43,937 nt of DNA, from UHGV virus genome UHGV-0384622; one strand, 5' to 3'. Both the position numbers and the translations under genes were made by a program. This DNA comes from a virus. The notes beneath the pieces are model-generated. The model was not told where the DNA came from and did no database searches. It saw only the letters and a list, made by a program, of their open reading frames with translations. This document shows, piece by piece, positions 1,526-21,527 of this stretch; the stretch's first letter is position 1; each line of letters starts with the position of its first letter.

Positions 1526-1554
1526 TTGACAAAACTCAGAAAGTATTCTAATAT
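1526..1554 (+). promoter_or_regulatory. sigma-A type promoter for cI/ImmA/int operon: TTGACA-17-TAATAT
   Basis: TTGACA at 1526-1531, 17-nt spacer, TAATAT at 1549-1554. Confidence 0.6.
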
Positions 1555-1631
1555 AAAGTTACCACACAATTTATTAGAAAAATATCTGTACCCATTAAGT
1601 TTTACCGAAAGTTTTCTGTGTTCATACCTCT

Positions 1632-1659
1632 ATTATACAGAATTCTTTCTAATTGTCAA
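1632..1659 (-). promoter_or_regulatory. sigma-A type promoter on - strand facing the cI promoter: TTGACA-16-TATAAT
   Basis: rc of 1654-1659 is TTGACA and rc of 1632-1637 is TATAAT; lies inside the cI leader and points toward the cro-like gene. Confidence 0.55.
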
Positions 1660-1702: not shown

Positions 1703-2125
1703 ATGACCGTATATGAGCGGATTGAAAGCTTAAGGAAATCCACTGGGCTTTCGCAAGGAAAATTAGAAAAAGAGCTTGGTTTTTCTAATGGTTCTGTATC
1801 AAAATGGAAAACCAGCACTCCCACACCGGAGCGATTACAGAAACTCGCTGATTTCTTTGGTGTAACTGTTGATTACTTAATGAATGGGAAGGAGGAAACC
1901 CCAGAAGAAAAGAAGCCCACTCTTTCTAATAACGAAGAGCTTAATGTAATTAATGATGTTGACGAAATTATGAAGCGCATAAGGAACAACGAGACGGTTG
2001 TCCTAAGATTTAACGGCGAGGATTACTCGGGGGATGAGGATGAGGATAAATTATTAAGAGACTCACTGTTATCACTTTGTAGGGCAGCTAAGATTAAGAA
2101 AAAGCAGGAAGGCTTTGGAGAGTAG
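1703..2125 (+). CDS. cI-like XRE-family HTH repressor (ImmR-like)
   Basis: AAGGAG RBS; N-terminal HTH MTVYERIESLRKSTGLSQGKLEKELGFSNGSVSKW; acidic C-terminal tail; followed by an ImmA-like gene. Confidence 0.75.
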   Translation: MTVYERIESLRKSTGLSQGKLEKELGFSNGSVSKWKTSTPTPERLQKLADFFGVTVDYLMNGKEETPEEKKPTLSNNEELNVINDVDEIMKRIRNNETVVLRFNGEDYSGDEDEDKLLRDSLLSLCRAAKIKKKQEGFGE

Positions 2126-2128
2126 CGA

Positions 2129-2554
2129 TTGGAGATTAAAGATACTGTTTTGAATCTGGTTGAAAAATACGGAACCAGAAATCCTATGGAACTTGCGGAC
2201 TATTTAGGTTTTATTGTACAAAAGCATGACCTGGGGAAATACTCGGGTTACTACATAGAATACGAAGGAGTACCGTGTATATGCATCAACTCACGCATTA
2301 CCGATACCAAATACAGTGATATTGTCTTAGCCCATGAAGTAGGTCATGGGGTGTTACACAAAGGTACTGAATGTATGTTTTTTGGAGGAACTTTTTTTAG
2401 TAAAGCCAAGCCAGAGCAAGAAGCAAATATTTTTACTGCGGAGCTACTGATACCGGATACTACTATATTAGAAAACCCAGGATTAAACAAAAAGCAACTT
2501 TCCTGTTTAACAGGATACAGAGAAAAACTTTTTGAATTTAAAGAATGGAGATAG
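2129..2554 (+). CDS. ImmA/IrrE-family zinc metallopeptidase (anti-repressor protease)
   Basis: HEXXH motif LAHEVGHGVLH; classic ImmR-ImmA gene pair arrangement; TTG start with GGAGAG RBS. Confidence 0.8.
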   Translation: MEIKDTVLNLVEKYGTRNPMELADYLGFIVQKHDLGKYSGYYIEYEGVPCICINSRITDTKYSDIVLAHEVGHGVLHKGTECMFFGGTFFSKAKPEQEANIFTAELLIPDTTILENPGLNKKQLSCLTGYREKLFEFKEWR

Positions 2555-2743
2555 CCTATGCGTCCCAGTCAATACCATTATATAAAGCGCATGTGGGTAA
2601 GAAGTTCGTATAAGCGAAAAGAAAAAAGGAAACGTATATTATTGCTACCATTTCGACTGTTTTATAATTTATATAGTTTTCCTTTTAGGTTAATGGCCTA
2701 TCCATTTAAAAGTAGCAGAAAAATAAAAACATATAAAAATGAT

Positions 2744-3238
2744 ATGTCTAAAGAAATAATAAAAGGTATTTTGGGTGGGGTATCAATTTTACTTATAATA
2801 TTTTTAATATTATACTGTATTCAGAATTTCTTTTATTTATTTGGTTATGGACCTATAATATTGTTTGTGATTTTATTATCTATATTTATATATTGTAAGT
2901 GGGCTAAAAAAGAAATCTATGAATTACCAGAAAAAATTTTAGAACATATAAAAACATTGGCAGAAATCGTAAACACCACCAAAGATGAAGATATATTTGA
3001 AACTTCATTGAATGAGATTAAAATAGAATTGAATAAATTGGTATCTTATGAAAAAAATGGATGTCTGGGGCCAGAATTTTGTCCATCAAAGGACCTGGAA
3101 AAAATTACTGCTAACGAACAATTAACCAGAAAAAGATTTGAAGAAAGAAAAAAGTTTGATGTAGAACAATATGCAAAAATGTGTAATGCCTATATTGAAC
3201 ATCAAGAAGAGATGGAACAGTATAAGGATTCTAATTGA
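2744..3238 (+). CDS. hypothetical 2-TM membrane protein with coiled-coil C-terminal domain (cargo gene)
   Basis: two hydrophobic helices (GGVSILLIIFLILYCIQNFF, GPIILFVILLSIFIYC); very AT-rich; start uncertain because upstream is AT-rich with no SD. Confidence 0.5.
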   Translation: MSKEIIKGILGGVSILLIIFLILYCIQNFFYLFGYGPIILFVILLSIFIYCKWAKKEIYELPEKILEHIKTLAEIVNTTKDEDIFETSLNEIKIELNKLVSYEKNGCLGPEFCPSKDLEKITANEQLTRKRFEERKKFDVEQYAKMCNAYIEHQEEMEQYKDSN

Positions 3239-3285
3239 ATCACAGGGATGGTTATTGAGTCTGATGCACATTACGGAGGATGTTC

Positions 3286-3981
3286 ATGAGTATTAAGGGC
3301 GCTTCGCAAGAGTTATTTGTAGGTAAAAAGGATTCCAAAATTATAGACTTGTTTGGGAATTCTACAAAAATTTTTTACTCAGATTTAAAAAAAATTGAGT
3401 ATTGCTATTTTCAAATTGGCGTAGGTGGTGGATATCTGGATTTTGTTTATGATTCAAATAATGTAAAACGTTTTGACTTTAATCATAAAGCAAATGATAA
3501 AATAAGAAGAACTATTGAACTAATACAAGAAAATAATCCAGAATTAGAAATTATTGAACATTCTACTGAAGATTATAAATTCTATCAAAAGGATTGGTTT
3601 TATCTTCTAATGCTTTTCATTTGTTGTATGCCTTTAGGATTGTTTTTAATGTGGTATTACAAAAAAGGCACAAAATCAATGCGAATTATACTTACGGTTT
3701 TATTTATAACTTTATGGGGCATTGGGATATTCTCATCATGGCCACGCACTTACAGTTATCACATAACACTGAATGAATATAATCAATGTACTACTGGAAT
3801 GACATACCAAGAATGTGTAAATATAATTGGTGGAGAAGGAGAACCTATGGCAGAAACTAATATTTTAGACATTAATTCTACCGCATACATTTGGTACGGA
3901 GATGATTCATCAGGAGCTAATGCAACGATGTATTTTACAAATGGAAAATTGACTTCAAAAGCGCAATTTGGTTTGAAATAA
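3286..3981 (+). CDS. hypothetical membrane protein: N-terminal bPH-like domain, 2 TM, C-terminal BLIP/DUF3862-like domain (cargo gene)
   Basis: GGAGG 6 nt before ATG at 3286; TM pair FYLLMLFICCMPLGLFLMWYY / RIILTVLFITLWGIGIFSSW; C-terminal GMTYQECVNIIGG...YIWYG...ATMYFTNGKLTSKAQFGL resembles DUF3862. Confidence 0.5.
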   Translation: MSIKGASQELFVGKKDSKIIDLFGNSTKIFYSDLKKIEYCYFQIGVGGGYLDFVYDSNNVKRFDFNHKANDKIRRTIELIQENNPELEIIEHSTEDYKFYQKDWFYLLMLFICCMPLGLFLMWYYKKGTKSMRIILTVLFITLWGIGIFSSWPRTYSYHITLNEYNQCTTGMTYQECVNIIGGEGEPMAETNILDINSTAYIWYGDDSSGANATMYFTNGKLTSKAQFGLK

Positions 3982-3982
3982 G

Positions 3983-4016
3983 TAAAAACCGGCCCCTGCG
4001 CCAACAGGAACCGGCC
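3983..4016 (-). terminator. hairpin plus U-tract oriented for the - strand
   Basis: ccggcccctg/caggaaccgg stem (8 of 10 bp) preceded on + strand by AAAAA (a U-run when read on the - strand). Confidence 0.35.
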
Positions 4017-4147
4017 TACATACCCGAAGATATGCACTATAATTCGCACCTATATTGTACCATCTTCGGGGCGGCTTTGCAAGATATTTGCGGAGCTGTA
4101 TTTTTTATACCTATTTTTAGGAAAATCAATTGAAGGAGGAAAGAGAA

Positions 4148-5218
4148 GTGACTACAAAAGCCCCGAAAAAGAAAAAAGGAGAACTACCATCCAAAAATAT
4201 CCGTGTACAATTATATTTATACACGGATGAAAAAGGTAAACGGCATTACAAAAGCTTTGTTGCCCCATCACGCAAAATCGCACAAGAAATGGCTGCCAGA
4301 TGGAAATTAGATATGAAGGATAAGCCCATAGAGAAATACAATGAACCGGAAGAGGACGAAGAAGATATTACAGTCAATGATGCTATTGAACGCTATTTAA
4401 GCGCCAAGAGCGGTGTTTTAAGCCCTTCTACGCTTAGAGGGTACACTGGTCTGCAAAGACAGTATTTCGGCGGCGCATTTGGTCAAAAAAAGCTTTCAGA
4501 ACTGACAAGTCCATCTGTGCAAATATGGGTAAGTAATTTAGCTGCAAAAAAACTATCTCCAAAGACGGTAAGAAATGCCTATGGTCTGTTATCTCCAACA
4601 CTGGAAATGTTTGCACCCGAATTAACTTTAAACGTTAAACTGCCTCAAAAAAAACGTCCTAACTTATATTGCCCCAATGACAATGATATTAAAAAGTTGC
4701 TGGATGCTATTAAAGGCACTGATTTGGAGATAGCTGTATTATTGGCTGCGTTTGGTCCACTTAGGAGAGGGGAGATAAGCGCTCTAACTGATAAGGACGT
4801 GGATGGAAAAATTATCCATGTAAGAGATAATATGGTCAAGGGGCCAGACAATCAATGGTATATCAAACAGCCAAAGACAGATGACAGTACAAGGGATGTA
4901 GAAATGCCCGCATTTGTAATTGACCGGATATCTAAAAGAAAAGGAAAGCTGGTTGACATGAACCCGGATTACATCACACACCGATTCGGGCGAGTACTCA
5001 AAAAAATTGATATACCACACTTCAGATTCCATGACCTACGGCATTATGCTGCATCCATTATGCACGCTATAGGGATACCGGACCAATATATTTTGCAGCG
5101 GGGAGGATGGGCCAGCGACAATATTATGAAAACCGTATACAGAAATGCGATTGACTCTGAAACCGTCCGGCAAAATAAAAAAATTAATAAGCACTTTGAA
5201 AAGTTGAACAGCATGTAA
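4148..5218 (+). CDS. int: tyrosine site-specific integrase
   Basis: GTG start with AAGGAGG RBS (alternative TTG at 4130); catalytic-region motifs LRRGE, HDLRH, C-terminal VYRNA; lies beside an attP-like region. Confidence 0.85.
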   Translation: MTTKAPKKKKGELPSKNIRVQLYLYTDEKGKRHYKSFVAPSRKIAQEMAARWKLDMKDKPIEKYNEPEEDEEDITVNDAIERYLSAKSGVLSPSTLRGYTGLQRQYFGGAFGQKKLSELTSPSVQIWVSNLAAKKLSPKTVRNAYGLLSPTLEMFAPELTLNVKLPQKKRPNLYCPNDNDIKKLLDAIKGTDLEIAVLLAAFGPLRRGEISALTDKDVDGKIIHVRDNMVKGPDNQWYIKQPKTDDSTRDVEMPAFVIDRISKRKGKLVDMNPDYITHRFGRVLKKIDIPHFRFHDLRHYAASIMHAIGIPDQYILQRGGWASDNIMKTVYRNAIDSETVRQNKKINKHFEKLNSM

Positions 5219-6848: not shown

Positions 6849-6936
6849 GGAGAAATACTCAAGAGGCCGAAGAGGCGCCCCTGCTAAGGGTGTAGGCTGG
6901 GCAACCGGCGCGAGGGTTCAAATCCCTCTTTCTCCG
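6849..6936 (+). tRNA. tRNA-Ser (anticodon GCT), class II with long variable arm, CCA not encoded
   Basis: acceptor GGAGAAA/TTTCTCC perfect 7 bp; D stem CTC/GAG; anticodon stem CGCCC/GGGTG; loop CTGCTAA (U33, GCU, A37); T arm GAGGG-TTCAAAT-CCCTC; discriminator G. Confidence 0.75.
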
Positions 6937-7090
6937 CTCCATTTTCCAAATGATTATTTGGTGGCAAAAGTAAAAACAGCATATGTTATTTAAGCATAGA
7001 TACGTCTGGAAACTTTAAAATTACGCCACAAGCAGCAGTTGCATCTGGTGACGCTATGTCTATCATGGAGTATTATGTCTAAATGATCAT

Positions 7091-19962: not shown

Positions 19963-20166
19963 TGATGATTCTCCTTTTCCGTTATTAGGTTATTTGTAGG
20001 TGTGTAACCGTCCACCAACGGTTTGCCATTTTGTAGGACTTGGCGTGTCCCGAAACGCACATGCCGGAAATTGCATCCGCTTTTCAACCTCCAGGCCGTT
20101 TATGCTATGCATTAGGACCCGTTTCTATTAAGGACATGTGCAGTTGGAGGAGGTTCAAATACTAGA

Positions 20167-20537: not shown

Positions 20538-20867
20538 ATGACAGTGGCCGAATTAAAGGAAATGATTGCGAACAATAATGATTGGGATTCTTACGAAAAA
20601 TATGGTATCCGCATTCAAGAACAGGACTTTGAACTCGGAACTGTTGACCACAACTCAAAAGTCTGGGTTGATGGAGAGGAAACAGAAGAGGAACTTGATG
20701 GAATATGTGCCATTAATTTAAACTCTCCGGAAGCTGCTGGTGCGCTCAATGGTCGTGGATATTTTGGTTCCCACATAGCCCTACTTGCAAGTAACCGTTT
20801 TTCATATGGTCTTGATGCAGGAGAGGTAATATTAAAAGATGCAGAAGTATTATATATTATCAAATAG
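20538..20867 (+). CDS. hypothetical protein (cargo island, + strand)
   Basis: 109 aa ORF downstream of the promoter. Confidence 0.5.
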   Translation: MTVAELKEMIANNNDWDSYEKYGIRIQEQDFELGTVDHNSKVWVDGEETEEELDGICAINLNSPEAAGALNGRGYFGSHIALLASNRFSYGLDAGEVILKDAEVLYIIK

Positions 20868-20880
20868 GAGGTGTGAAAAA

Positions 20881-21159
20881 TTGAGAAGATATCCTGATTG
20901 CATAAGAACTGATGGACTATGCGGGGCCTGCTCCGCCTCCAGTCGTGGCAGGGATTGCCACAACAACAAAATAAACAAGCTGTTATATCAACGCTCTTTG
21001 GCGGAGATGACCCAACAGCAGGTAGCGGATGCCGCCAAAATAAATATCCGTCAGATTCAGAAGTTTGAATCTGGAGAAGGGGATCTTGGCAACATGACCC
21101 TGCGCAATGCTCTGGCTCTGGCAAAAGCCCTTGACTGCGATGTTGATGATTTTTTGTAA
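20881..21159 (+). CDS. Cys-rich N-terminal segment fused to an XRE-type HTH (putative regulator of the island)
   Basis: AGGAGG 9 nt before TTG at 20881 (alternative ATG at 20839); CIRTDGLCGACSASSRGRDC followed by the HTH MTQQQVADAAKINIRQIQKFESGE. Confidence 0.5.
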   Translation: MRRYPDCIRTDGLCGACSASSRGRDCHNNKINKLLYQRSLAEMTQQQVADAAKINIRQIQKFESGEGDLGNMTLRNALALAKALDCDVDDFL

Positions 21160-21194
21160 CAAATACTTACTCAGGAAATTTGGAGGATAATATT

Positions 21195-21527
21195 ATGGAG
21201 AAATATGATATTTTTAAATCAGAGGGCGGTTATAGAGTATGTTTGGCCACATATGGAGATGACCCTATCATTGACAGGTGTCCGTGGTGTAAAACTTTGG
21301 CTGACGCAAAAGCTGTTGCTAGAGATGCTAAGTTTGACAATGAGACAAGACAATATGGGGTATTTAATGGTGAGGGCTGGATGGCAAGCCTCCCGTCTAA
21401 CGATTACGAAACAGATTATTATAAGTTTGGCTCGCGAGATGAGGCGGTAAAAGCAGTAATATCAGCAATGGAAAAGCTGGGATACACCCGTGAATACATT
21501 CTGTATCGCAGGAAAGATTTATTATAA
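21195..21527 (+). CDS. hypothetical protein
   Basis: GGAGGA RBS 8 nt before ATG at 21195. Confidence 0.45.
   Translation: MEKYDIFKSEGGYRVCLATYGDDPIIDRCPWCKTLADAKAVARDAKFDNETRQYGVFNGEGWMASLPSNDYETDYYKFGSRDEAVKAVISAMEKLGYTREYILYRRKDLL

What the first reader, a model, noticed from the sequence alone, without database searches (positions are those of the whole stretch)
2560..3981. AT-rich two-gene membrane-protein cargo between ImmA and integrase, a candidate superinfection-exclusion or abortive-infection module
The segment between the repressor/ImmA pair and int is visibly more AT-rich than the rest of the phage. It carries two co-oriented genes on the lysogeny strand, so they would be expressed from the prophage. 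Protein A is a 2-TM protein with a charged coiled-coil tail. Protein B has an N-terminal bPH-like domain, two TM helices and a C-terminal BLIP/DUF3862-like domain (GMTYQECVNIIGG...YIWYG...FTNGKLTSKAQFGL). In Lactococcus and Streptococcus phages the int-repressor interval is a known hotspot for Sie/Abi membrane proteins. This domain combination is not one I can assign to a described system.
Basis: partly seen in the sequence, partly recalled or inferred. Interest (0 to 1): 0.7.

Follow-up and report, generated by a model that had tools for sequence, protein, structure and literature searches.

The report
Two independent prophage membrane-protein cargo genes
Between the repressor/ImmA genes and the integrase, this gut (Dorea/Blautia-type) temperate phage carries two real, AT-rich membrane-protein genes of uncharacterised families. 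They sit in a true swap-in/swap-out hotspot but are separate cassettes, not a two-gene system, and their most likely job, excluding or aborting other phages, is still untested.

Summary
Window 2558-3981 has the lowest G+C of any segment its size (0.291 vs 0.408±0.024, z = -4.9). It carries two co-oriented genes downstream of repressor-ImmA, with no predicted terminator until 4071-4099. Both are under purifying selection (dN/dS: A 0.24-0.26, B 0.07-0.08).

**Protein A (2558-3238):** an unannotated family with an invariant N-terminal peptide MRPSQYHYIKRMW, two TM helices, a cytoplasmic helical domain and a conserved C-terminal motif. Relatives are fused to FtsK-gamma or Mrr-type nuclease domains.

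**Hotspot:** among 38 phage contigs with related integrases, the slot holds A+B (5), B without A (6), other PH-domain alleles (20) or unrelated cargo. The A-B spacer retains the 3' end of another phage's short ImmA gene, a recombination scar.

So the "two-gene module" is not supported. These are two independent morons. Superinfection exclusion or defence is the best inference, but it rests on position, topology and domain fusions. No known Sie, Abi or PADLOC family matches.

The parts
1703..2125 (+). Repressor (HTH_3/XRE type), first gene of the lysogeny-strand operon
   Evidence: Pfam HTH_3 8.7e-11; phrog_8 1e-22. A promoter-like site TTGACA-17-TAATAT lies at 1526-1554 (consensus match only).
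2129..2554 (+). ImmA/IrrE-type metalloprotease; left border of the cargo slot
   Evidence: Pfam Peptidase_M78 7.2e-15; phrog_87. Its stop codon lies 3 nt before the ATG of A.
2558..3238 (+). Protein A, 226 aa: membrane-anchored, cytoplasm-facing protein of an unannotated family
   Evidence: No Pfam, PHROG, NCBIfam or PADLOC match. 89 clusters at E<=1e-3 among 1.84 billion representatives. dN/dS 0.24-0.26. All-helical model, pLDDT 68, with no fold match.
2558..2596 (+). Invariant N-terminal peptide MRPSQYHYIKRMW of protein A
   Evidence: Identical in homologues that are only 25-36% identical overall. The DNA carries many synonymous differences and the upstream DNA is unrelated, so conservation is at protein level.
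2765..2899 (+). Two transmembrane helices of A (aa 70-92 and 97-114), joined by a loop of about 4 residues
   Evidence: Kyte-Doolittle maxima 2.7 and 2.3. Flanks are strongly basic (11 K/R in aa 1-26, 7 in aa 51-69), which points to N-in/C-in topology. Topology is inferred.
2930..3154 (+). Cytoplasmic helical domain of A (LAEIVNTT...EFE.SL.EIK.EL..L..YE...PS.DL..I..NE.LTR..FEER)
   Evidence: Conserved across the family. The same domain occurs in proteins carrying Mrr_cat nuclease (P0064, P0074, P0086, P0109) or FtsK_gamma (P0053, P0063).
3155..3223 (+). C-terminal motif of A (FDVEQYAKMCNAYIEHQEEMEQY)
   Evidence: Conserved with synonymous DNA changes. It also occurs in tandem copies and as stand-alone mini-proteins (P0067, P0073, P0085).
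3254..3289 (+). Recombination scar: the last 11 codons and stop of a short ImmA-like gene, now non-coding between A and B
   Evidence: Identical to the 3' end of the 76-aa ImmA-like gene that precedes B in L044, where its TGA overlaps B's ATG. Absent from the L005 lineage.
3286..3981 (+). Protein B, 231 aa: PH-like domain, hydrophobic hairpin, TM helix and BLIP/DUF3862 ectodomain
   Evidence: AlphaFold model pLDDT 90. dN/dS 0.07-0.08. Homologues lie in the lysogeny modules of several phage lineages.
3286..3570 (+). PH-like N-terminal domain of B (aa 1-95), cytoplasmic
3592..3738 (+). Membrane region of B: helical hairpin aa 103-124 broken at P-L-G, a basic loop (KKGTKSMR), and a TM helix at aa 130-151
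   Evidence: Model helices 103-112, 115-124 and 130-151; hydropathy and charges. Homologues P0020, P0021 and P0024-26 lack the hairpin and have one TM with the same two domains, which implies N-in/C-out. Topology is inferred.
3760..3978 (+). Single BLIP/DUF3862-type repeat (aa 159-231), predicted extracellular
3989..4109 (+). Conserved structured intergenic element: two hairpins plus an intrinsic terminator (4071-4099 and T-run); right border of the cargo slot
   Evidence: RNA fold -50.9 kcal/mol, z = -5.07. Terminator-like site. The sequence is near-invariant and starts at the same base in relatives whatever cargo precedes it. 83% identical in Blautia phage Montmirail at the same position.
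4148..5218 (+). Tyrosine integrase
   Evidence: Pfam Phage_integrase 7.4e-10; phrog_1 2.2e-51. In L006 a host Ldh gene follows int, which is the integrated form.

Best explanation
The segment is the cargo slot of the phage's lysogeny operon (repressor-ImmA-[cargo]-terminator-int). It currently holds two unrelated, independently acquired morons that would be made in the lysogen together with the repressor. Protein B is a bitopic membrane protein. It has a constant cytoplasmic PH-like domain, a membrane-embedded hairpin plus one TM helix, and an exchangeable ectodomain, here one BLIP/PepSY-clan repeat, a fold used elsewhere to bind and inhibit enzymes. Protein A is anchored by two TM helices with almost nothing exposed outside. 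Its invariant N-terminal peptide, helical domain and C-terminal motif all face the cytoplasm. Relatives of its modules are fused to DNA-binding (FtsK gamma) or DNA-cutting (Mrr) domains. The most likely role of each is protection of the lysogen against other phages. B would act at the outer face of the membrane, in an Ltp/Sie-like way, by binding an incoming phage component or a cell-envelope factor the phage needs. A would act at the inner face, on entering DNA or its entry apparatus, or as a membrane-acting abortive-infection effector in the way AbiP and PdpSau do. Shown here: gene reality, architecture, fold, operon position, hotspot behaviour and separability. Inferred: membrane topology, expression in lysogens, and the anti-phage function and its mechanism.
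For: Operon position. A and B follow ImmA after 3 nt and 47 nt, with no predicted + strand terminator until 4071-4099. An integrated copy exists in L006. Hotspot behaviour. Among 38 contigs with related integrases (34 at >=86% identity) the slot holds A+B (5), B alone at 98-100% identity (6), other PH-domain alleles (20), or unrelated cargo such as a 363-aa protein plus a TM2-like protein, a 342-aa protein plus DUF2085, or a HicAB-like pair identified by eye. The right border is sharp and conserved. Foreign composition: G+C z = -4.9. Mobility: B is 68% identical in L015 while the flanking ImmA, repressor and int there are 34-43% identical. A (the 66 residues held in that locus) is 100% identical in L033 next to a 65% repressor. 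There is a recombination scar between A and B. B architecture. The N-terminal module is recombined with DUF4352, DUF5067, an OB-fold domain, TM2, Zn-ribbon and SHOCT partners. A DUF3862 lipoprotein occupies the same ImmA-int slot in Lactobacillus prophage Lj771. A bPH_3+SHOCT protein occupies it in Blautia phage Montmirail. A family: protein-level conservation of both termini; fusions to FtsK_gamma (E 1e-9 to 1e-19) and Mrr_cat (E about 1e-26 to 1e-29); three further homologue contexts all lie between the immunity genes and the recombinase (L013, L014, L077). Precedents from the literature: Ltp-type Sie lipoproteins encoded in the lysogeny module (PMC3952083); the membrane-anchored prophage Abi protein PdpSau, which resembles AbiP (PMC10127798); the TM+DUF4352 protein Mpr, which confers phage resistance (PMC12596739).
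Against: No experiment bears on function. Neither protein matches any PADLOC model or any PHROG annotated as superinfection exclusion. The window's own protein A has no recognisable DNA-binding or nuclease domain; those occur only in relatives. Some PH-domain alleles in the same slot have no membrane segment at all (PH+SHOCT, L040). The conserved function of that domain may therefore be cytoplasmic and unrelated to the cell surface. Between B orthologues the ectodomain is the most conserved part (pN 0.15 against 0.25 for the PH domain), not the fast-evolving part expected in an arms race. Proteins with the A-type N-terminal motif also occur at an ordinary chromosomal locus (P0133, L078/L079). 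The model of A is weak (pLDDT 68).
Confidence: 0.5

Rival explanations
1. A and B form one obligate two-gene exclusion or abortive-infection system: sensor plus effector, or a complex of the two membrane proteins.
For: They are adjacent, co-oriented and probably co-transcribed. They occur together in all close relatives recovered through protein A (L001-L012, L024-L031). The gene after an A homologue in L014 carries a weak DUF4429/PH-like match (E 0.0019) and a faint similarity to B's PH domain (E 0.13).
Against: B at 98-100% identity is found without A in 6 contigs (L041, L044, L045, L054, L064, L069), and at 68% identity directly after ImmA in L015. A homologues are followed by an unrelated lipoprotein (L013) or a 95-aa ORF (L077). 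The spacer holds a recombination scar from a short-ImmA-B arrangement. dS differs between the two genes against the same relative (0.17 against 0.47 for L005), which indicates different histories.
Confidence: 0.08
2. One or both proteins regulate the prophage itself rather than other phages. For example, B could be a transmembrane sensor (ectodomain outside, PH domain inside) and A a membrane tether, each tuning ImmA/repressor activity, induction, or integration and excision.
For: The cargo is tightly packed behind ImmA or the repressor: 3 nt in the window, and ATGA overlaps in L013, L015 and L044. What triggers ImmA-type proteases in phages is generally unknown (established knowledge). PH-domain proteins recur at this slot in many lineages, including soluble forms. 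B has a receptor-like architecture.
Against: The slot is dispensable and interchangeable among phages that share the same repressor, ImmA and int. B-family genes also occur after int, away from ImmA (L016, L076), and beside repressors that lack ImmA (L021, L023). A core regulator would be expected to co-vary with its immunity genes, but B does not.
Confidence: 0.15
3. They are lysogenic-conversion genes that benefit the host for reasons unrelated to phages. For example, the BLIP/PepSY-type ectodomain could inhibit an extracellular hydrolase, protease, beta-lactamase-like or PBP-like enzyme, or modify the cell envelope in the gut.
For: The BLIP-like group (Pfam clan PepSY) contains families that act as enzyme inhibitors (PMC11836899). 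DUF3862 lipoproteins are also common chromosomal genes in Firmicutes (for example S. mutans 3d4e). The ectodomain is the most conserved part of B.
Against: BLIP itself is matched only below threshold, and B has one repeat, not the two that form BLIP's binding surface. This reading says nothing about A, which has no extracellular part. Strict confinement to prophage lysogeny modules is more typical of phage-phage conflict genes.
Confidence: 0.15
4. The AT-rich segment is non-functional filler, with decaying or spurious ORFs.
For: The composition is very AT-rich and neither protein has a functional annotation. AT-rich DNA readily yields promoter-like matches and ORFs by chance (21 promoter-like sites found against 17 expected).
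Against: dN/dS is 0.07-0.26. Homologues down to 25-45% identity keep motifs, length and architecture. B gives a confident fold prediction (pLDDT 90). Synonymous variation lies over invariant peptides.
Confidence: 0.02

Closest known systems
Ltp-type superinfection-exclusion lipoproteins of Streptococcus thermophilus phages (TP-J34) and lactococcal Sie2009-type proteins
   Same: They are encoded in the lysogeny module next to the int and repressor genes, are expressed from the prophage, and are displayed on or anchored in the cytoplasmic membrane (PMC3952083; own knowledge for Sie2009).
   Different: There is no sequence or fold relationship. B has no signal peptide or lipobox, is anchored by an internal hairpin plus a TM helix, carries a cytoplasmic PH-like domain, and has a BLIP-type ectodomain instead of Ltp's helix-turn-helix-like repeats. 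No PHROG annotated as Sie matches it. A block of DNA injection is untested.
DUF3862/'BLIP' lipoproteins of temperate Firmicutes phages, e.g. Lactobacillus prophage Lj771 LJ771_002 and the Paenibacillus larvae and Bacillus phage proteins
   Same: They share the ectodomain family (40-46% identity over about 75-80 residues). In Lj771 the gene order is also the same: regulator, metalloprotease, DUF3862 protein, integrase.
   Different: Those proteins are classical lipoproteins, and by eye the Lj771 one carries two repeats. B has one repeat plus the PH-like cytoplasmic domain. I found no functional data for any of them; only 2 held papers mention DUF3862.
Bacterial PH-domain proteins in prophage lysogeny modules, e.g. 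the bPH_3+SHOCT protein of Blautia phage Montmirail
   Same: A PH-fold domain is encoded in the same repressor-int slot, which ends at the same conserved intergenic element. The L040 allele of the B family is also PH+SHOCT.
   Different: B's PH-like domain reaches no Pfam bPH threshold. Its link to an ectodomain through a membrane segment is a different architecture. These proteins also have no known function.
Membrane-anchored abortive-infection proteins AbiP (Lactococcus) and PdpSau (S. aureus prophages)
   Same: The description fits A: a prophage- or MGE-encoded membrane anchor with a cytoplasmic tail. PdpSau is reported to have a DNA-binding-type fold and to cause membrane depolarisation on infection (PMC10127798). 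Relatives of A carry DNA-binding or nuclease domains.
   Different: There is no detectable homology: PADLOC gives nothing and A's model has no fold match. PdpSau lies next to the lysis genes, not in the immunity operon. A has two TM helices and conserved terminal motifs that those proteins lack.
Mpr of Mycobacterium smegmatis (TM + DUF4352 phage-resistance protein)
   Same: It has the same layout as the sister alleles of B, which pair the PH-hairpin-TM module with DUF4352: a short cytoplasmic part, a TM helix and a DUF4352 domain. Temperate phages carry DUF4352 proteins (PMC12596739).
   Different: The window's B carries DUF3862, not DUF4352. Mpr has no PH domain.

Membership tests
DUF3862 (PF12978) | HMM score above Pfam's gathering threshold | tested here: met
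   28.7 bits against a cut-off of 25, E 1.4e-6. The match covers only profile positions 84-159 of 159, i.e. one repeat.
BLIP (PF07467), beta-lactamase inhibitor protein | HMM score above the gathering threshold | tested here: not met
   19.5 bits against a cut-off of 26.7.
BLIP (PF07467), beta-lactamase inhibitor protein | Tandem pair of about 76-residue repeats that together form the binding surface | tested here: not met
BLIP (PF07467), beta-lactamase inhibitor protein | Inhibition of class A beta-lactamases | not testable with these tools
   This needs biochemistry.
PH-like fold / bacterial PH domains (bPH) | Seven-stranded beta-sandwich capped by a C-terminal helix | tested here: met
PH-like fold / bacterial PH domains (bPH) | Match to a Pfam bPH family at threshold | tested here: not met
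   No hit for the window's protein. Among 21 relatives there are only sub-threshold hits: bPH_7 0.021, DUF4429 0.0062, DUF956 0.001.
Ltp-type Sie lipoproteins | Signal peptide with a lipobox cysteine | tested here: not met
   B starts MSIKGASQELFVGKK, and its first hydrophobic stretch is at aa 103.
Ltp-type Sie lipoproteins | Gene in the lysogeny module on the repressor strand | tested here: met
Ltp-type Sie lipoproteins | Blocks DNA injection by superinfecting phages | not testable with these tools
   This needs plating and DNA-entry assays.
Known anti-phage defence and Abi families (PADLOC-DB v2) | HMM match to any component model | tested here: not met
   Zero families at E<=1 for both proteins.
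AbiP/PdpSau-like membrane-anchored Abi | N-terminal membrane anchor plus a cytoplasmic nucleic-acid-binding domain | tested here: inconclusive
   The anchor and cytoplasmic tail are present in A. DNA-binding or nuclease domains are found only in relatives (FtsK_gamma, Mrr_cat), not in the window's A.
Obligate two-gene system (A+B) | The two genes co-occur wherever either is found | tested here: not met
   B occurs without A in L015, L041, L044, L045, L054, L064 and L069. A homologues have other downstream neighbours in L013, L014 and L077.
Moron / variable cargo hotspot | Different gene content between conserved flanks in related phages, with deviant composition | tested here: met
   At least seven different slot contents among phages with related integrases (most >=86% identical); a sharp conserved right border; G+C z = -4.9.
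FtsK/SpoIIIE-derived proteins | FtsK gamma (or alpha) domain | tested here: not met
   Neither domain is found in the window's A. FtsK_gamma is present in relatives P0053, P0063, P0106 and P0129. FtsK_alpha gives only sub-threshold hits in P0133 and P0137 (E 0.02-0.04).

The most novel reading that the evidence does not exclude
A and B each found a new family of prophage-encoded exclusion or defence proteins. (1) In the 'PH-TM-X' family, a constant cytoplasmic PH-like domain is coupled through the membrane to an exchangeable ectodomain (BLIP, DUF4352, DUF5067, OB-fold and others), forming a modular surface receptor that recognises incoming phages. (2) The 'MRPSQYHYIKRMW' family consists of inner-face membrane proteins evolutionarily entangled with FtsK-gamma and Mrr nuclease modules. 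Its invariant N-terminal peptide and C-terminal motif would dock onto a conserved DNA-entry or DNA-translocation component to block or destroy entering DNA.
Probability: 0.3. Interest if true: 0.65.

Novelty: new variant of a known kind. Interest (0 to 1): 0.45.

Why it matters
Phage exclusion and defence in the dominant gut Lachnospiraceae (Dorea, Blautia) is almost unexplored. The known Gram-positive Sie proteins come from a few dairy bacteria. This locus offers two compact, testable candidates. It also offers a well-delimited natural 'cassette exchange' slot: its left border is the ImmA stop codon and its right border is a conserved hairpin/terminator element shared with the cultured Blautia phage Montmirail. 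The alleles of that slot form a ready-made catalogue of candidate lysogen-protection genes. The invariant 13-residue N-terminus of protein A and the FtsK-gamma and Mrr fusions of its relatives give concrete handles for finding its target. If no anti-phage phenotype appears, the recurrent PH-domain cargo would instead point to an unrecognised layer of prophage regulation.

Tried and rejected
- **Known annotation for A:** Pfam, PHROGs, NCBIfam, PADLOC, a profile search against PDB sequences and a Foldseek search of its model against PDB all gave nothing meaningful.
- **tblastn of A against 50,697 phage records:** no match. B's N-terminal module matched one record only, Dulem virus 35.
- **More A-family context:** degenerate DNA patterns for the N-terminal peptide were scanned in viral, genome and metagenome collections. 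Only the same phage lineage and the L014-type gene turned up. The alignment-based locus search used an uninformative TM pattern.
- **afdb50 fold library:** not available.
- **Are the conserved termini of A a DNA-level mosaic artefact?** Rejected, because the codons differ synonymously and the flanks are unrelated.
- **Are the genes downstream of A homologues in L013 and L014 B homologues?** Rejected for L013, which is a lipoprotein with no similarity. For L014 there is only a faint PH-like resemblance.
- **Diversifying selection on B's ectodomain:** not seen.
- **Rfam:** no known RNA family in or next to the segment.
- **Literature on DUF3862, DUF4429 and BLIP in prophages:** essentially empty.
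Full report
**1. What is there**

The window is a temperate siphovirus-like genome of about 44 kb. Most genes lie on the - strand. A short + strand lysogeny block runs repressor (1703-2125, HTH_3), ImmA/Peptidase_M78 (2129-2554), ORF A (2558-3238), ORF B (3280/3286-3981) and a tyrosine integrase (4148-5218). An M15/VanY-type lysin follows on the - strand.

Near-identical contigs show int followed by the lysin, which is the circular or free form. One (L006) shows int followed by a host lactate dehydrogenase gene, which is the integrated form. The only genome-collection hit is a contig assigned to an uncultured Dorea sp..

**2.

- The segment 2558-3981 has G+C 0.291. Same-size segments elsewhere average 0.408 ± 0.024 (z = -4.9), and this is the lowest of 851 sliding windows.
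- GC3 is 0.22 in both genes against 0.32-0.41 in ImmA, the repressor and int.
- Both ORFs are real genes. Against relatives L001 and L005, dN/dS is 0.24-0.26 for A and 0.07-0.08 for B, compared with 0.04-0.10 for the repressor, ImmA and int.
- B most likely starts at ATG 3286 (MSIKG...), 6 nt after GGAGG. All homologues start there.
- The ImmA stop is 3 nt from A's ATG, and A's stop is 47 nt from B's start.
- The pattern scan finds no + strand terminator between 1200 and 4071. It finds a good one at 4071-4099 followed by a T-run.
- Co-transcription with the repressor is therefore likely but inferred.

**3. Protein B**

The AlphaFold model, built from 31 homologues, is confident (pLDDT 90).

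- *Membrane region.* Between the two domains lie two short helices (103-112 and 115-124) broken at P-L-G, a basic loop (KKGTKSMR), and a 22-residue helix (130-151).
- *Topology.* Homologues P0020, P0021 and P0024-26 keep both globular domains but have a single TM helix and no hairpin. Soluble relatives of the PH domain exist, with SHOCT or Zn-ribbon partners. DUF3862 domains elsewhere sit on lipoproteins. The consistent topology is therefore PH domain and basic loop inside, hairpin re-entrant, BLIP repeat outside. This is inference.

**4. Protein A**

A has no hit in Pfam, PHROGs, NCBIfam or PADLOC. Its model (pLDDT 68, all helical) has no structural neighbour. An exhaustive profile search of 1.84 billion representatives finds a small family: 89 clusters at E ≤ 1e-3 and 30 at ≤ 1e-10.

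- *N-terminal peptide.* M[RK]PS[QHN]Y[HN]Y[IL]KRMW is nearly invariant. It is identical in proteins that are 25-36% identical overall. The codons differ synonymously and the upstream DNA is unrelated, so conservation is at protein level.
- *Membrane region.* A very basic stretch comes first, then a proline-rich, weakly hydrophobic segment (aa 27-50), then two strong TM helices (70-92 and 97-114) joined by about 4 residues. Almost nothing is exposed outside.
- *Cytoplasmic part.* A conserved helical domain (LAEIVNTT...EFE.SL.EIK...PS.DL...NE.LTR..FEER) is followed by a C-terminal motif (F[DE].E.YA.MCNAYLEHQEEMEQY). That motif also occurs duplicated and as stand-alone mini-proteins.
- *Fusions in relatives.* These modules are fused to FtsK_gamma (P0053, P0063, P0106, P0129; E 2e-9 to 1e-19) and to Mrr_cat restriction-endonuclease domains (P0064, P0074, P0086, P0109; E about 1e-26 to 1e-29).
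- *Weaker links.* Two proteins with the N-terminal motif carry sub-threshold FtsK_alpha matches and sit at an ordinary chromosomal locus.
- The window's A itself has none of these extra domains.

**5. The slot is a real hotspot, and A and B are separable**

I fetched 38 viral contigs with related integrases, 34 of them at ≥86% identity, and scored the interval upstream of int.

| Slot content | Contigs |
|---|---|
| A+B | 5 (L039, L047, L053, L072, L075) |
| B at 98-100% identity without A, directly after a different repressor and a 76-aa short ImmA-like gene | 6 (L041, L044, L045, L054, L064, L069) |
| Other alleles sharing B's PH domain: PH + hairpin + TM only (175-198 aa), PH + Zn-ribbons, PH + SHOCT | 20 |
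| Unrelated cargo | remainder |

The unrelated cargo includes:
- a 363-aa protein plus a TM2-like membrane protein (L043);
- a 342-aa protein plus a Zn-ribbon plus DUF2085 (L051);
- a HicA/HicB-like pair identified by eye (L071).

Further evidence for independent mobility:
- Outside this lineage, B homologues sit in lysogeny modules with other tyrosine or serine recombinases (L015, L016, L018, L021, Dulem virus 35).
- A homologues sit between the immunity gene and the recombinase, followed by unrelated genes (L013, L014, L077).
- B is 68% identical in L015, where ImmA, repressor and int are 34-43% identical. A (the 66 residues held in that locus) is 100% identical in L033 beside a 65% repressor.
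- The A-B spacer (3254-3289) is identical to the last 11 codons plus stop of the short ImmA gene that precedes B in L044, where its TGA overlaps B's ATG. This scar shows B arrived from a short-ImmA-B arrangement and was later juxtaposed to A. The L005 lineage lacks the scar.

The right border of the slot is sharp. In every relative, whatever the cargo, conservation begins at AACCGGCCCCTGCG... (window 3989) and runs through two hairpins and the terminator to int. This 161-nt region folds far better than shuffles (z = -5.07). It is 83% identical in the cultured Blautia phage Montmirail, at the same place. There the slot holds a bPH_3+SHOCT protein and a homologue of the L043 363-aa protein.

**6. 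How it most likely works**

*Shown:* two independently mobile, selected membrane-protein genes sit in the cargo slot of the immunity operon.

*Inferred:* both are made in lysogens. B displays a BLIP/PepSY-clan binding module on the outer face of the membrane and a PH-like module inside. A faces the cytoplasm.

The position matches that of Ltp- and Sie2009-type exclusion genes (PMC3952083). Lactobacillus prophage Lj771 carries a DUF3862 lipoprotein in exactly this ImmA-int slot. The exchangeable ectodomains resemble Mpr, a TM+DUF4352 phage-resistance protein (PMC12596739). A's layout and the DNA-binding or nuclease fusions of its relatives recall the membrane-anchored Abi proteins AbiP and PdpSau (PMC10127798).

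I therefore rank 'two separate anti-phage morons' first, at about 0.5 for the function. In that reading B acts at the surface. A acts at the inner face, on entering DNA or as an Abi effector.

*Against this reading:*
- there is no homology to any validated system;
- soluble PH alleles occupy the same slot;
- B's ectodomain is its most conserved part;
- the window's A lacks a DNA-binding domain.

*Rivals:* a regulatory or sensor role in prophage induction (0.15), a phage-unrelated lysogenic-conversion role such as enzyme inhibition (0.15), an obligate A+B system (0.08), and junk DNA (0.02).

**7. Novelty and verdict**

The kind of thing, lysogeny-module morons in a hotspot, is well known. 'BLIP/DUF3862' proteins at this position are already annotated in deposited phages. 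What is new:
- the architecture of B (PH-like domain, re-entrant hairpin, TM helix, exchangeable ectodomain);
- the A family, with its invariant N-terminal peptide and its FtsK-gamma and Mrr relatives;
- the precise delimitation of the slot.

Its 'two-gene module' is not supported, and its functional proposal remains plausible but untested. Interest is moderate (0.45).

Noticed in passing
window 3989-4109: A near-invariant structured intergenic element between the cargo and int: two hairpins plus an intrinsic terminator, RNA fold z = -5.07. It starts at the same base in all relatives whatever cargo precedes it, and is 83% identical at the same position in Blautia phage Montmirail. In the more distant L071 the third hairpin has a different sequence but is still a hairpin followed by a T-run. 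It may double as the int promoter/regulatory region and as the recombination anchor of the hotspot.
   Followed up: partly
window 3254-3289: The A-B spacer contains the last 11 codons and stop of a 76-aa short ImmA-like gene that precedes B in other phages (L044). It is a recombination scar.
   Followed up: yes
window 19986-20142 (- strand): Two Rfam matches above gathering score lie side by side among the structural genes: RAGATH-21 sRNA (83.2 bits) and the GP20-b cis-regulatory RNA (39.4 bits).
   Followed up: no
window 20538-21527 (+ strand): A small island of three + strand ORFs (109, 106 and 115 aa) interrupts the - strand block and shows reversed GC skew. By eye the middle ORF looks like an XRE-type HTH protein. 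This is possibly a second moron or regulatory island.
   Followed up: no
window 6849-6954: About 100 nt match at 87-92% identity to unannotated GenBank 'phage' records attributed to Enterococcus, Listeria and Staphylococcus and to a human faecal phage. Either the element is widely shared or those assemblies are contaminated.
   Followed up: no
window 1526-1659: Two strong promoter-like sites face each other between the cro-like gene and the repressor: + strand TTGACA-17-TAATAT at 1526-1554 and - strand TTGACA-16-TATAAT (12/12) at 1659-1632. This would be a convergent-promoter switch. The evidence is consensus matches only.
   Followed up: no
L043 2374-3465; L051 2344-3372; L081 3474-4505; C-terminal halves of P0106 and P0129: An unannotated domain family of about 340-360 aa (motif ...GYG.TGSLDY..RMKA...) recurs as alternative cargo in the same slot. 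It is also in Blautia phage Montmirail (49% identity over 117 aa to L043). In other prophages it is fused behind the A-type N-terminal motif, TM helices and FtsK_gamma. Domains are shuffled within this hotspot's gene pool.
   Followed up: partly
L078 6001-7182; L079 3840-5021: A 393-aa protein with the A-type N-terminus (MRPSQYHYIKCAVTR), TM helices and a sub-threshold FtsK_alpha-like C-terminal domain sits at an ordinary chromosomal locus, between an MgsA-like AAA ATPase gene and ferredoxin and hrcA-grpE-dnaK genes. The N-terminal motif is therefore not confined to prophages.
   Followed up: partly
L071 3690-4338: In a relative whose integrase is 64% identical, the repressor-int slot holds what looks by eye like a HicA/HicB toxin-antitoxin pair. 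This was not checked against Pfam.
   Followed up: no
L037 863-1489: One short metagenome contig carries a copy of gene A that diverges abruptly after residue 110 (…SIFILLYFVLNIKIKINFI). It could be a frameshifted or truncated allele, or an assembly chimera.
   Followed up: no
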